A stretch of 64,000 nucleotides of DNA from Phoronis australis. Taxonomy: Eukaryota; Animalia; Phoronida. Positions 1,435 to 13,500 of this stretch are shown in pieces; within the stretch, counting starts at the first letter, position 1, and each line of letters starts with the position of its first letter. The notes beneath the pieces are model-generated. The model did no database searches and was not told the origin of the DNA. It worked only from the letters and a program-made list of their open reading frames with translations. The stretch is taken from NCBI GenBank assembly GCA_002633005.1, contig NMRA01000009.1, forward strand, positions 517,456 to 581,455, written 5' to 3'. The translations under genes and the position numbers were made by a program.

Positions 1435-1563
1435 CAATGTGTATCCCACAGTTGTACAGTCCACACAGCCGTGGAGGTCAAACTGATGCGATAGTTTGAT
1501 GTTGCATCCCCTATTCAAGTTAACAATCACACGACTAGATTGTAACCCAAACTTGAAGGATGC
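1435..1563 (-). ncRNA. H/ACA snoRNA candidate; 5' hairpin complementary to 28S CCUAUUC-U-CAAACUU
   Basis: GCAUCC/GGAUGC lower stem; pocket AAGUUU / GAAUAGG 14 nt before H box ACAUCA; second hairpin then ACA; ~129 nt, sense in RPN2 intron. Confidence 0.68.
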
Positions 1564-1595
1564 CATGTAGAGGAGACTGACCATTATCAACATAC

Positions 1596-7500: not shown

Positions 7501-10500
7501 AACATTTTCCACAGACACTTTGGTAGTCACCTTCACTTTCACCTGAAACACATAAAATGGTTGTTAACTTACTGCGCAATACCTTCACATTAATTGACAA
7601 GGCGTACTGCTGCCATAACACGCTTATGCATACTAAACAGACCATAGATTATTGTCAGTCCTAATGTTAGTCCACTTTAGAGCAGAAGAGCTAGAAGTGG
7701 GTGGAGCAGGACCCATTACTCTGGCACACTTCTTCAATGACATTGTAACATAAACAATACCTTCAAACAACAAGTGTGCCTGTAAACAACTATGAATTGA
7801 AACAACTATGTATTGGAGCAAACCTTAGCTAATAAAAAATGTCCAAATCAGGTCAATTTTGGAACATTATACCTCACAAACTAGTTCATTAGATTCACAT
7901 CCTGTTTTGTATAATTTTCTCTATAATACTGCCTGTAACTGTAAAATGTTCTACTTTTGTTTGAGGGACTATAGAAAGTGCAACTTATAATGAAAAAATC
8001 AGAAAGTTGCATAAAACGTAATAATTTAGGAAACTGTAAGACTTTTTTCATGGTCAACTTTTAAACAAAATTTGATCATCTTATGGATAGTTGTTTTTGC
8101 GTTTAATGTACCTTTCTTTTTGCTGGATTTTACTTAAAAAATGCATGGCTTCATGAGGGCTGTTCCAGTAAAATCTGTATGGGAGGGGGGGGGAAGGCAC
8201 CTTTTTTTCGCACCCACCACCCATATTTATCATTTATTTCTTCAGCCTACCACCCGTAATTTTTTATAAGTTTGAAATGCAACCACCCGTAATTTTTTTT
8301 TGTTCTAGTGGTTGACTGCACAGGCACATGAGTTTATCTGTTCCTCCATCACCACTAATGTCATTCATTACTAAGAAAACATATGTTTCTTATATATGGT
8401 TATAAGCCATCCAGAAATTCGAGCACCTGTGGTTAAATGGTGTTATGGGCATGCCGATGAGGAGATCGGAGGGAGTGAAAAAGTCGGAGTTTTTTGCAAG
8501 TTGCATTTTTGTTTCAGTTTTTGATTCTGTGCGGATTGTTTATAAAATTTACTAAAATTACCCACCATCAAACATTTATGGCCCAATGAAACAACAACGA
8601 CCTGTAAATTTTTATTTTTTTGAAGTACGACCACCACCCATTTTGAATTTAAATCAAACGCAACCACCCATAAATTTTTATTTCAGTTGCCTTCCCCCCC
8701 CTCCCACACAGATTTTGCTGGAACAGCCCTGACCCAATTAATGGCAGATTAGTAAAAAATGAAAATATAGGCTACTTTCAGAAAATATGTACATATACAG
8801 AGTTAAAACCTACAGTTTTGTAGATATTTGGCTTACTACAAACTTGTCCATGAGGTCCAACAACAGCCTTTTGTCCTTTTTCGCTCCCAATATTAATCAG
8901 GGCTTGGAATGACCAATGACAAAAAACGCGGAAACTTTTACGGCTCAAATCATGCCCGAGAACCAGCCTTTGAAATGGTTAATGTGAACCTTTGCGCGAC
9001 AAAAATCGGGAGGACTAAAAAAAAAAAAAAACGTTACCACCATCAGTAGCATGCGTCTGCGTCCTTTTCGCTCGCCCGTCCACTCCCAACCCACACAAAT
9101 TTGGCTGCAGAGAGGTAGTATTTGTCGCCGCGCTTAACAATAACACGAGCCGCCATTGAAAATCAGACCACGCTTTACCCAGATGCCCCGGCAATGTTGA
9201 CAATTTACGTTCCTCCGAAACATAAAGACTTCCGCTTTCCGAGGTGAACGTCGTCTGCAACGCCGCGGTAAGAAAGGAATTTGCCGCGGAAATTTCATAT
9301 CAAATCCCGATTTTTTTTATGCGGAAATATTATAAAAAAGCGGAAAGCACATTTCAAAAAAGCGGAAATCCGCGTTTCCGCGGAAAATTCCAAGCCCTGA
9401 TTAATAAGCCTGTTGGCCTGAGCTAAGCAATCACAATGCGTCAGTTGAATTATTTGTGCACTCCTTAAACTATGTCTGCTATTATTGCAATGTAATACGA
9501 GACCTTCCCTCAATAGACATCACTTACCACAGCACCAGATGTGCCAATCAATCTGTTGTCAGGCTTCTGTGGAGCCACACTCAGTGTGATTCTGTAGAAA
9601 CCATGCTTGGGTTTAGTGTCCATCAAGTTCATTTCAAATAGGGAGCTGAAAATAGAAGGCTTGTCAATATGTTGAAACAGAGGAGTGTCAGAACACTTGA
9701 ATGCAAAACCCTAAGAATAGTGTACCCTGCATGGTTTATCTCCCCAGTTATGACCACTCTGTGGCTATGGGAAAGTTATGGAATATGCACGGTCCAGTCC
9801 ACACCAGTCCATGAAGACTGGGGACACGGTTACTCTACGACACTGTAGCTGGGGAATATACCACAAGCCTTTTACAGCAGTCGGCTCCCACGGACTACAA
9901 ACACAGCCGGGCTGCTTACAAGAGCTACCCAGATGTAGGTGTCGCTTTCCCACATTACAAGTCTGCTAAGTAACAAACTTTAGACACAATTCATCTGATG
10001 GCAATACAATGTTCTGGGTCCATTCTGTTAAAAATGACTAGCACATATAACAGAAATCAACAAGCATGTCTCACATTTTCATACAGCAATATAAAGTGAC
10101 AAGAACCTGTCAGACTTGGAGGCCTTCAGTGGCTTCTTGTTGAGAACGACTGCATCGTCACGGAGGTTCTTGCCAGAGTCTGCTGTGACCGTGAGAGTTC
10201 CAACAGACTCCCCCATCAAGTTAGTCACTTTCACCTGCACGTTAGGGCTGGAGACAGACACTGCCACAGGACCGGCCAGTGATACAGCTATAGGGATGTG
10301 GTACTACAATACAACGGTATCCTGTCACAAATATGCTATATTACAAACACCTGACAGCCTTGGAAGTAAAAACAAAATTTGCTTACATTGTTCAAAGTGT
10401 GCAACTAATAGATGTATGGAATAGGTAGATTCTTTTTTGCACAAATGAAAATCGACAGATCCTCTCATCAACATCCATTCTCAAAATTATGTTGTGTTGG

Positions 10501-13500
10501 GGCACGTGATGTCACAAGGCTTGGATGATTAGATAGGTTGATCAGGTCTCCATATACAATTGAAAAAATTGTACAGATGAAATTGTACAGAGTCCCTATT
10601 CATAGAATTCCAAGCTTCAGAACCCATCACTCAATATATCTACCAGACATATCTATTTTAGTGATAACAGCAATATTATCTAAAACTAAGTTAACGAAAA
10701 TGTTGCGTTGGCACAACATGTTACTATACTAACCATCAAAACATTACTCTCCACAGCACTATATACTCTATAATCAAGTGTTGTCCCTGGTACACCTACC
10801 TTATTGCTAGCCAGAGTCTTTACAACTGATACTAACTGCGCTGCACTCCTTAGTTGTTGCACATGTTTCCTACTAAGTAAATAATTGGTGAATTTGACCA
10901 CCCTTTCCTGCAAGACAAATGTTACATACTAGAACGTGTTGTGACTTACTCTACACATATTGTGAATAAACAGCTTCACCCATTTCAGTTGGTAGTGCAT
11001 GTAAGTGTCAACAGAGCTAGTAGCTTTTGTCCTGTCAGAGATCATCACTAATGGGTGTACTTACAATAGACATTGTTCAATACAGCTCAATGAAATAAAC
11101 AGCATAGGTAGACTGCAATACTATCATCTGTGCAATCAGCAATAGTAGTGCTGCCAAATGACTGTAGTTGTACGGTGCAATGTACACACACAGAAAACAA
11201 ACACAGCAAAATATCCATGAATGAAAGAAATAACCCCTTGTCCTGATCAACTCTCGTCTAACAAAATCGGAAGTCGCTTTCATCCTTTACAACATAAAGG
11301 AGTTTTACGTGCGATAAGTAACGTTCCACATGAGGCTCCAAACCAGCCAAGGCATATACACATTTAATAAAGACACAGCAACAGTAAAGTTATGAATAGG
11401 CAGGATTAACTTACATCATTGATTGTTGGTGCCTTCTTGGCTTTCTCCCCTAATCTGTATGCTCCGTCTAGGACAAGTGCTGTTGTGTACAGACCTGCTT
11501 CAAACTGCAACATAATTGGCAAACGGGTTTCACAATTTAAAAATGAAAATCCTTGCATTTCAAAAACCGTTGCCGAGTATTTTGTGTGGACAATGACATT
11601 TCCACAAAAACCAATTAATAATGTAATAACTTCCTTGTTACAGCTTACCTGATAGTATTTGTTGTCTACTTCATCAGCCTGAGCAATAACATCTTCTATC
11701 AAGTCATACAGCTGCTTTACATCACTATCTAACTGTGAAGCTACATAAAATGCATAGCCATTGCTGAAAGTAAACAAATGAAAATTGCCAAGCTTAAATT
11801 GTATTAGATTTGAATACAGATTTGTACGTTATATAAATTGGAAGGAATTATGACTGCTAAACTTCAATAACTTTGCTTCATCTATTTTATTTTAAAGTGA
11901 CACTATAGACAACAATGTTATGCATTTGAAATCCACCTCAAAAGAGATTGCAAGTCACGACCTCAGCAGTCACAGTTGATGGCCACGACCTCAACAATCA
12001 CAGTTGATGGTCACGACCTCAACAGTCACAGTTGATGGTCACGACCTCAACAGTCACAGTTGATGGTCACGACCTCAACAGTCACAGTTGATGGTCACGA
12101 CCTCAACAGTCACAGTTGATGGTCACGACCTCAACAGTCACAGTTGATGGTCACGACCTCAACAGTCACAGTTTATGGTCACGACCTCAACAGTCACAGT
12201 TGATGGTCACGACCTCAACAGTCACAGTTGATGGTCACGACTTCAACTGTCACAGTTGATGGTTTGCTTGAAGAGCTAAATGCCAATGTGGTAGGTAAGA
12301 ATATTTAAGTGATGTCGCCAGCCTCAACTATTGTTGAAAATACAAAATAATTGGAAGCCAACATCAGAAATTGGCGATATCACTCACCAAAAATCTTAAA
12401 AAACCAGACAAGGATCACTAAATCATAACATCATAACAAGAAATGACATATTGATGGTGTTTCACTACAAAACGTGTCCTTCCATTCTAGATCCCCAAAG
12501 CTCACAAACAGAGATGAGGGGGTGGAGCAGGAGAGGTTGTTATAGCATTCCCACAGTCACAGAGACAGACCAAGCACATGTCACTGTGTATCCGAAAGGG
12601 TATGCATGACGCGTAAGAACACAAGTACTACTTGCGGCTCCGAGAGAGAAAGGCAACAGTGGACATACCTTGTTGGTGAATCATCGGTCTTCAATGACTC
12701 TAACAAAGCAGCGCTGACAGTGTTGGAATCAACTGTAAGCAAAGGGTACACCAACTAGTTAAGACTGCTCAAAGCAACAATTGTGTAGGAATGAAAAAAT
12801 GAACACGCATTTAAATACCATGTTGACAGCAACTAACAGTTTCTCAAGTATATTAGTGCGATAATTTCACAGCATCAAATCCAACTCGTACATATCCCCA
12901 TACATATTTCTAATGACTAAGGAAGGAATTTTTAATCCAAAACAGCTTGAACTGTAATCAACATTATATATCACAGAAAGACAAGCCAATGTTACTATTA
13001 TCGTGGCAATATCATTTCCCAACTAAAGCTTTATCTGACAAGAAACATAAGACCTACCTGCAAGTGCTAGATTTTTTAAAGCAAAGAATGCCTGGTAAAT
13101 AGTGAGTACTTTAGATTCGCCCTTGATAGACTCTGTGAGTAACTGCTTGGCATTAGCAGCAGTCAGCTGGAAGACAATAGGGTTAAACTGATTGTGCTTG
13201 GGAGAATGAAGGGACAATTGATACACACAGTATAGTAGACAGGGGTTTGACACATACAGTATAGCAGACAGGGGTTTGACACATACAGCATAGTAGACGG
13301 GGGTTTGACACATACAGCATAGTAGACGGGGGTTTGACACATACAGTATAGTAGACAGGGGTTTGACACATACAGTATAGTAGACGGGGGTTTGACACAT
13401 ACAGTATAGTAGACGGGGGTTTGACACATACAGTATAGTAGACGGGGGTTTGACACATACAGTATAGTAGACAGGGGTTTGACACATACAGTATAGTAGA

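What the first reader, a model, noticed from the sequence alone, without database searches (positions are those of the whole stretch)
1435..12606. RPN2 acts as a multi-snoRNA host gene (at least 8 intronic snoRNAs)
Seen: eight structured RNAs, all sense to RPN2 and about one per intron, with correctly spaced H/ACA or C/D boxes (1435, 1786, 5838, 7226, 7650, 9718, 10977, 12472). Established: in human the corresponding guides sit in other hosts (U17 in SNHG3/RCC1, SNORA4 in EIF4A2, SNORD33 in RPL13A), and I do not know RPN2 as a snoRNA host. Inference: this lineage recruited the ER oligosaccharyltransferase subunit gene as a ribosome-biogenesis RNA hub, tying the essential 18S-processing RNA U17 to an ER-capacity gene. 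Most recognised targets are on 18S.
Basis: partly seen in the sequence, partly recalled or inferred. Interest (0 to 1): 0.85.

Follow-up and report, generated by a model that had tools for sequence, protein, structure and literature searches.

The report
Glycosylation gene hosting eight ribosome-guide RNAs
In a worm- or mollusc-related animal, eight introns of the housekeeping protein-glycosylation gene RPN2 each carry one small-nucleolar-RNA-like sequence (two are clear copies of the ribosome-processing RNA U17) that are likely cut out of the spliced introns, an ordinary arrangement in a host gene I could not find recorded.

Summary
RPN2 lies on the minus strand (16 exons in the window, 593 codons without a stop), and eight different introns each hold one sense-strand snoRNA candidate.

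Support is graded. Two U17/SNORA73 copies pass Rfam's threshold. A SNORD33-type C/D RNA (18S U1326) and two snR83/SNORA4-type copies (18S U1347) are well supported. A SNORA24-like RNA (18S U863) and the 1435 RNA are moderately supported; 12472 is weakest. The other 41 kb scanned gave no snoRNA-family hit. Available RNA-seq shows the splicing but holds no U17 reads, so accumulation is untested.

The RPN2 protein tree places the animal in Lophotrochozoa. RPN2 is absent from the human, zebrafish and ancient-host tables I searched, so the host looks unrecorded. Host switching, including for U17, and multi-snoRNA hosts are well documented, and broad expression is the known requirement. Nothing here supports a selected ER–ribosome link. 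Three predicted targets (18S U1840, 28S U1771, 28S U2419) are not among the human modifications I saw. Verdict: new member of a known kind.

The parts
22727..22763 (-). RPN2 exon 1 (short 5' UTR, 10 coding nt); 5' end approximate
   Evidence: loose ends of 127-180 reads per run match 22728-22751; GT donor and position
22758..22764 (-). TCT/5'TOP-like pyrimidine motif, C+1 at 22763 (candidate start, not mapped)
   Evidence: the motif occurs 1.19 times per kb by chance on this strand
17720..17913 (-). RPN2 exon 2
16637..16732 (-). RPN2 exon 3
   Evidence: loose end
13058..13187 (-). RPN2 exon 4 (not covered by read laying)
   Evidence: GT-AG ends and open frame
12669..12732 (-). RPN2 exon 5
   Evidence: loose end of a contig
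12472..12606 (-). H/ACA candidate E, intron 5 (weakest). H 12543, ACA 12477. 5' pocket predicted on the 28S uridine equivalent to yeast snR8's site; 3' pocket is an snR83/SNORA4-type guide for 18S U1347 with two mismatches
   Evidence: against:
11649..11763 (-). RPN2 exon 6
11415..11504 (-). RPN2 exon 7
10977..11057 (-). SNORD33-type box C/D RNA, intron 7. C box 11048, D box 10988-10985, terminal stem; guide predicts 2'-O-methylation of 18S U1326; ends 69 nt from the 3' splice site
10800..10907 (-). RPN2 exon 8
10107..10303 (-). RPN2 exon 9
9718..9945 (-). U17/SNORA73 copy a, intron 9 (m1 AUAUUCCAU, m2 AAACCAU)
9528..9645 (-). RPN2 exon 10
7650..7781 (-). snR83/SNORA4-type H/ACA RNA D, intron 10. 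H 7722, ACA 7655; 3' pocket predicted on 18S U1347
7451..7542 (-). RPN2 exon 11
7226..7351 (-). SNORA24-like H/ACA RNA C, intron 11. H 7294, ACA 7231; 5' pocket predicted on 18S U863, 3' pocket on 18S U1840 (helix 45)
6607..6811 (-). RPN2 exon 12
6111..6215 (-). RPN2 exon 13
5838..6066 (-). U17/SNORA73 copy b, intron 13 (98.7% identical to copy a, unrelated flanks)
5606..5689 (-). RPN2 exon 14
5189..5284 (-). RPN2 exon 15
1786..1914 (-). snR83/SNORA4-type H/ACA RNA B, intron 15 (94% copy of D, unrelated flanks). H 1857, ACA 1791
1596..1671 (-). RPN2 exon 16; the next exon lies left of the window
1437..1566 (-). H/ACA candidate A, intron 16. H 1502, ACA 1442 (or 1440); pockets predicted on 28S U1771 and U2419 (human numbering); no Rfam family

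Best explanation
RPN2 in this lophotrochozoan carries one snoRNA-like sequence in each of eight introns and likely works as an ordinary snoRNA host gene, whose spliced-out introns would be trimmed to release U17 and rRNA-modification guides. Shown: gene structure, splicing, one candidate per intron in the sense direction, U17 family membership, and duplicate pairs whose likeness stops at the RNA ends. Inferred from the known pathway: after splicing and debranching, exonucleases trim each intron to the part protected by H/ACA or C/D proteins. Predicted roles: the two U17 copies pair through m1/m2 with expansion segment 6 of pre-18S and support its cleavage; the C/D RNA methylates 18S U1326; RNAs B and D, and perhaps E, pseudouridylate 18S U1347; C targets U863 and possibly U1840; A and E's 5' hairpin target 28S uridines. 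The RNAs likely arrived by the usual host switching and intron-to-intron copying, and were kept because RPN2 is an intron-rich, broadly expressed housekeeping gene, not because of its ER role.
For: Gene model and splicing; RPN2 identity. Rfam; negative controls. Copies 98.7% and 93.7% alike only within the RNA. Guides map to sites modified in human (Um1326, Psi1347, Psi863) or yeast (snR83, snR8), with pocket tops 14-16 nt from the boxes. U17 m1 differs from all 14 listed m1 motifs and pairs over 8 bases with the 18S form in 33 of 38 panel sequences. Known host switching and the broad-expression model: PMC2655684, PMC3511168, PMC7601244.
Against: No small-RNA data; accumulation is not shown for any of the eight. 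Only the two U17 copies pass Rfam gathering scores. 1435 and 12472 have no snoRNA family hit; 12472 and 7226 fold no better than shuffles. Target scores for C3 (9 of 96 nulls reach it) and E5 (27 of 96) are within chance, and E3's 18S site was not among its top hits. Targets were scored on rRNA of other animals, and I set the pocket positions after seeing a first scan. Broad expression of this gene was not measured. Related genomes could not be inspected.
Confidence: 0.8

Rival explanations
1. Selected coupling: the guides were gathered in RPN2 so that small-subunit production rises with ER and glycosylation capacity.
For: Seven of eight RNAs have a predicted 18S target, clustered in ES6, helix 34 and helix 45. 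A TCT-like motif lies just beyond the exon-1 read ends. Human and zebrafish RPN2 promoters are listed as dual YC/YR initiators.
Against: After merging duplicates only about 4 of 5 families point at 18S (about 0.09 by a hand binomial with a recalled 40% share). 4151 zebrafish genes are dual initiators. Vertebrate RPN2 hosts nothing in the tables searched. No co-regulation data exist here; drift among broadly expressed genes explains the pattern.
Confidence: 0.08
2. Only part of the set is functional: U17, SNORD33-type and snR83-type RNAs are real, while 12472 and perhaps 7226 or 1435 are decayed copies or chance hairpins, so the count of eight is too high. This is compatible with the host-gene mechanism.
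For: No snoRNA Rfam hit for 1435 or 12472; weak folding of 12472 and 7226; two mismatches next to the target in E's 3' guide; the blind architecture filter passes 57 of 1324 box pairs.
Against: E shares a 13-mer with B and D at 55-56 nt from ACA (expected 7e-5 times in 21 kb). A has z -2.9 and two high-scoring pockets (0 and 4 of 96 nulls). C aligns to the SNORA24 5' hairpin and H box and hits the U863 site.
Confidence: 0.35
3. The snoRNA sequences are unexpressed retrocopies or pseudogenes that landed in RPN2 introns, with the working genes elsewhere.
For: The three raw-read libraries show exon-only depth over both U17 copies. Other copies in the genome could not be searched.
Against: All eight are sense and one per intron; boxes, stems and guides are intact; likeness between copies ends at the RNA boundaries with no A-rich tail. 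Libraries lacking U17 altogether cannot speak to snoRNA expression.
Confidence: 0.05

Closest known systems
Protein-coding multi-snoRNA host genes: ribosomal protein genes carrying U17 in Xenopus, Fugu and zebrafish (rps7); EIF4A2 (SNORA4); RPL13A (SNORD33)
   Same: One sense-strand snoRNA per intron, repeated copies of one family (U17 in all six introns in Xenopus, PMC7601244 passage), likely pyrimidine-rich start.
   Different: The host encodes an ER oligosaccharyltransferase subunit, not a ribosome or translation protein; it mixes five or six families; RPN2 is in none of the host tables searched.
U17 / SNORA73 / snR30 (Rfam RF00045)
   Same: Full-length model match above gathering score, H and ACA boxes, m2 motif identical.
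   Different: m1 reads AUAUUCCAU, unlike the 14 listed m1 motifs, and fits the invertebrate-type 18S partner; host is RPN2.
snR83 / SNORA4 / S. pombe snR92 (18S yeast Psi1290 = human Psi1347)
   Same: 3' pocket pairs 5+8 bases around U1347, 16 nt from ACA; weak snR83 and snR92 matches.
   Different: Far below gathering scores; two full copies plus a third RNA (E) that joins this 3' guide to a different 5' hairpin.
SNORD33 / Z195 (RF00133)
   Same: C and D boxes, terminal stem, 12-base guide, fifth base before box D on U1326.
   Different: 36.4 bits against a threshold of 44; host RPN2 rather than RPL13A.
SNORA24 / ACA24 (RF00399)
   Same: 5' hairpin and H box align weakly (E=4); pocket predicted on 18S U863, a human pseudouridine.
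   Different: The 3' hairpin does not align; its pocket points at U1840 beside ac4C1842, not listed as modified in human.
Constrained-drift model of snoRNA location (Hoeppner and Poole 2012, PMC3511168)
   Same: Ancient guides in an ancient housekeeping gene, host not shared with vertebrates; STT3A appears in its host list.
   Different: RPN2 is not in that 1091-gene list, and no lophotrochozoan is among the genomes named in its header row.

Membership tests
Intronic snoRNA host gene | snoRNAs wholly inside spliced introns, sense to the host, one per intron | tested here: met
Intronic snoRNA host gene | Mature snoRNAs accumulate and depend on host transcription and splicing | not testable with these tools
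   Libraries show exon-only depth over U17; no small-RNA run was offered
Intronic snoRNA host gene | TCT/5'TOP (YC) initiation, common but not obligatory | tested here: inconclusive
   Motif 12 nt beyond the read consensus end; 1.19 per kb by chance; no start pile-up listed
Intronic snoRNA host gene | Broad, housekeeping expression | not tested
   Exons at about 200-600x in 3 of 3 raw-read runs of one study; breadth across tissues not measured
U17/SNORA73 | Covariance-model score above gathering threshold, full length | tested here: met
   96.8 and 85.8 bits against 74
U17/SNORA73 | m1 and m2 motifs complementary to 18S rm1/rm2 | tested here: met
   m1 partner in 33 of 38 and m2 partner in 29 of 38 panel 18S; the species' own 18S not available
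SNORD33 | Rfam gathering score | tested here: not met
   36.4 against 44 bits, E=0.002
SNORD33 | C/D boxes, terminal stem, guide placing the fifth base on 18S U1326 | tested here: met
   (50 of 50 loci map to 1326)
snR83/SNORA4 | Rfam gathering score | tested here: not met
   snR83 26.4 against 75 bits; no SNORA4 row shown
snR83/SNORA4 | 3' pocket on 18S U1347 (yeast 1290), 14-16 nt from ACA | tested here: met
   B and D: 1-2 of 96 nulls, 8 of 8 references; mapping. E is only partly met (two mismatches)
SNORA24 | Rfam gathering score | tested here: not met
   15.4 against 40 bits, 5' hairpin only
SNORA24 | 5' pocket on 18S U863 (assignment of this site to SNORA24 is recalled) | tested here: met
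   8+4 pairs, 14 nt from H; 4 of 96 nulls
SNORA9 / SNORA61 (considered for RNA A) | Pockets on the human modified sites near 28S 1766-1769 or 2495 | tested here: not met
   Best registers map to U1771 and U2419, not in the human table passages seen; no Rfam hit
Box H/ACA guide RNA (A, C, E) | Pseudouridylation of the predicted uridine | not testable with these tools
   needs rRNA pseudouridine mapping in this species

The most novel reading that the evidence does not exclude
RPN2 is a conserved lophotrochozoan small-subunit snoRNA operon, selected so that U17 and guides for ES6, helix 34 and helix 45 rise with ER expansion, and it includes lineage-specific guides such as one that puts a pseudouridine at 18S U1840, two bases from the acetylated C1842. 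The U1840 guide alone I put at about 0.35.
Probability: 0.08. Interest if true: 0.65.

Novelty: new member of a known kind. Interest (0 to 1): 0.33.

Why it matters
It adds an apparently unrecorded, heavily loaded host gene from a lineage whose snoRNAs are barely annotated; standard Rfam thresholds see only two of the eight RNAs. It gives a clean test of drift against co-regulation, because the host has no ribosomal role. It also predicts testable lineage-specific pseudouridines (18S U1840; 28S U1771, U2419, U1713) and a U17 m1 change that fits invertebrate 18S. It does not change how snoRNAs are known to be made or to act.

Tried and rejected
No own genome was held, so other copies of these RNAs could not be sought. 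No RNA holder was listed among indexed runs; the raw-read runs show exon-only depth over U17 and are uninformative on snoRNA levels.

My first guess for exon 1 (19057-19066) was wrong; reads place it at 22727. My first guess of a deuterostome was wrong. Recalled names SNORA9 and SNORA61 for RNA A were dropped after mapping.

Extra candidates at 17025-17152, 18441-18585 and 15542-15690 were rejected: fold z -0.4, -0.1 and +0.7, no Rfam hit. A strict H/ACA scan found only 1 of the 5 guide candidates. No conserved target was settled for the 5' hairpins of B and D. A Pfam scan of exon pieces was not completed; identity rests.

PMC8351944 and PMC10464549 gave nothing useful. The supplement of PMC6182160 gave no hit. 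The supplement search of PMC10234308 is uninformative: the positive control was also absent and one file was not searched.
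Full report
Host gene. The minus strand encodes ribophorin II: exon 12 matches human oligosaccharyltransferase subunit 2 in the PDB (E=6e-13). Sixteen exons join into 593 codons without a stop and align end to end with full-length homologues. Three stranded RNA-seq runs of one study and one contig set show the joints of introns 6-15, and loose ends that carry exon 5 and a last exon lying left of the window. A second laying shows exon 3 and the true exon 1 at 22727 upward. 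Introns 3 and 4 were not covered by reads. In a 26-row protein tree the window falls in a 9-row lophotrochozoan group (98/98), outside the six molluscs and unresolved against Owenia and Lineus; the highest identity is 63%. The 25 reference rows were chosen by me, mostly named proteins.

Observation. The eight candidates lie in introns 5, 7, 9, 10, 11, 13, 15 and 16, one each, all sense. At gathering level Rfam finds 2 matches in 64 kb, both SNORA73. At E<=10 over 1-16000 it adds SNORD33 (E=0.002), snR83 (0.016) and S. pombe snR92 (0.63) at the stated places, plus four chance-level rows, one of them an archaeal C/D family at 3132. A narrow scan adds a weak SNORA24 match to the 5' hairpin of 7226 (E=4). 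Narrow scans of 1435 and 12472 give no snoRNA family. Controls over 14400-23000 and 23001-64000 give no snoRNA row. The U17 copies are 98.7% and the B/D pair 93.7% identical, and the likeness stops at the RNA ends, as expected if the RNA and not the intron is conserved or copied. Folding against 200 shuffles: A z -2.3 (-2.9 trimmed), D -2.4, the C/D RNA -1.5, B -1.3, C -1.0, E -0.1 (-0.6 trimmed). All five guide-type H/ACA candidates can take the hairpin-H-hairpin-ACA form at or within 3.5 kcal/mol of their minimum. That form alone proves little: a blind filter passed 57 of 1324 box pairs in 1-32000, ranking D first, E fourth and C eighth, passing A only with another H box, and missing B. A strict filter found only D.

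Targets. The species' own rRNA was not available. I used 97 rDNA loci from metagenomes, picked with an animal-biased motif, which gave 38 whole 18S and 56 28S pieces; 8 served as references. Positions were converted to human numbers by checking that neighbouring listed modifications fall on the right letters (against Table 1 passages of PMC6182160). Against 96 randomised rRNAs: B3 and D3 hit 18S U1347 (2 and 1 of 96; 8 of 8 references); C5 hits U863 (4 of 96; 7 of 8); C3 hits U1840 (9 of 96; 8 of 8); A5 hits 28S U1771 (4 of 96; 6 of 8); A3 hits U2419 (0 of 96; 5 of 8); E5 hits U1713 (27 of 96; 1 of 8). E3's U1347 pairing has two mismatches and was not a top hit. B5's best hit is a poorly conserved 28S site (0 of 96; 2 of 8) that D5 does not share. 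Ten pockets were tested, and I fixed their positions after a first scan, so these counts flatter the result. Pocket tops lie 14-16 nt from the boxes in 8 of 8 drawn cases, the known rule (PMC9226516 passage). U1326, U1347 and U863 are modified in human. Yeast snR83 guides 18S 1290, and snR8 guides the uridine whose context matches E5's site (supplement rows of PMC5062969). U1840, U1771, U2419 and U1713 are not in the human table passages I saw. The C/D RNA is the best of 7 C/D-shaped candidates in the window (11.5 against 8.0 for the next). E shares a 13-mer with B and D at 55-56 nt from ACA, so it is either a chimera of that guide with another 5' hairpin or a decaying copy. U17's m2 is canonical; its m1 differs from all 14 listed (PMC7601244 table) and pairs over 8 bases with a sequence found in 33 of 38 panel 18S, the same stretch that C's 5' pocket binds.

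Expression. Bin depth over both U17 copies equals the exon-only expectation, and the two intron-only bins holding C and the C/D RNA are at 0-1.6x, no higher than empty intron bins. Libraries without U17 are probably poly(A)-selected (inference) and say nothing about snoRNA levels. A TCT-like motif has its C+1 at 22763, 12 nt beyond the read consensus, but such motifs occur 1.19 times per kb.

Mechanism. Shown: structure, splicing, orientation, U17 identity. From established knowledge: intron-encoded U17 is released by exonucleolytic trimming and pairs with ES6 through m1/m2 (PMC7601244 passages). Inferred: the same holds here, and the other RNAs guide the modifications listed. The likely history is host switching plus copying between introns of the same gene.

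Comparison and novelty. Human hosts are EIF4A2 (SNORA4), RPL13A (SNORD33) and SNHG8 (SNORA24), and RPN2 has 0 hits in that table (supplement of PMC8176728). In zebrafish, rpn2 has 0 hits in two snoRNA tables while rps7 hosts SNORA73 (supplements of PMC6954239 and PMC11880993). RPN2 is not in the 1091 ancient hosts of PMC3511168, whereas STT3A is. Two full-text searches for RPN2 or ribophorin II with snoRNA gave 2 papers each, none on this subject by title and abstract start (listings only). Eight further searches showed no lophotrochozoan snoRNA survey in their listings. Subscription papers, bioRxiv supplements and genome-browser annotations were not seen, and automated genome annotation may already mark U17 inside RPN2 in relatives. 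Host switching for U17 is stated in PMC2655684 (passage) and PMC7601244; PMC3511168 (abstract and passages) finds broad expression to be the main requirement. Earlier scan notes record U17-like RNAs in other hosts (unchecked) and none on RPN2.

Verdict. The finding is real, with six or seven of the eight RNAs well or moderately supported. The mechanism is ordinary; the host appears new. The ER-coupling story is untested and not needed. New member of a known kind; interest 0.33.

Noticed in passing
window 7226-7287 (-): The 3' pocket of RNA C pairs 3+8 bases around 18S U1840, two bases from ac4C1842 in helix 45; not a listed human modification; 9 of 96 nulls score as well.
   Followed up: partly
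window 9718-9945 and 7294-7351 (-): U17's variant m1 and RNA C's 5' pocket bind the same ES6 stretch of 18S, so two guests of one host would act in turn on one site.
   Followed up: partly
window 1786-1914 and 7650-7781 (-), 5' hairpins: B's 5' pocket strand has an 8-base complement to a conserved 18S stretch (37 of 38 panel sequences) that by recall lies beside yeast snR83's second site (1415); no uridine falls in the guide position, so it may be a relic.
   Followed up: partly
window 10101-10106 (-): Intron 9, which holds U17 copy a, has a weak-looking donor (GTTCTT) yet is spliced in 267-401 reads per run.
   Followed up: no
window 2570-3080 and 8900-9400: Two copies of a ~500-nt dispersed repeat in introns 15 and 10, with reads from many other loci; probably a transposon.
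   Followed up: no
window 13218-14436, 11954-12263, 1135-1349, 16442-16604: Tandem arrays with periods 29 (42 copies), 28, 35 and 59 inside RPN2 introns.
   Followed up: no
window ~19330-19480 and ~21040-21220: Two inverted copies of a repeat seen by eye about 1.7 kb apart in RPN2 intron 1; the first attracts reads on both strands.
   Followed up: no
window 58601-59173 (+): Open frame with cysteine-rich C1-like motifs and a diacylglycerol-kinase-like start (recognised from recall); a neighbouring gene on the other strand.
   Followed up: no
window 50848-51321 (-): 157-residue open frame with a signal-peptide-like start and coiled-coil-like stretch.
   Followed up: no
window 1-1595: Intron 16 runs off the left end of the window, so further snoRNAs may lie beyond it.
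   Followed up: no
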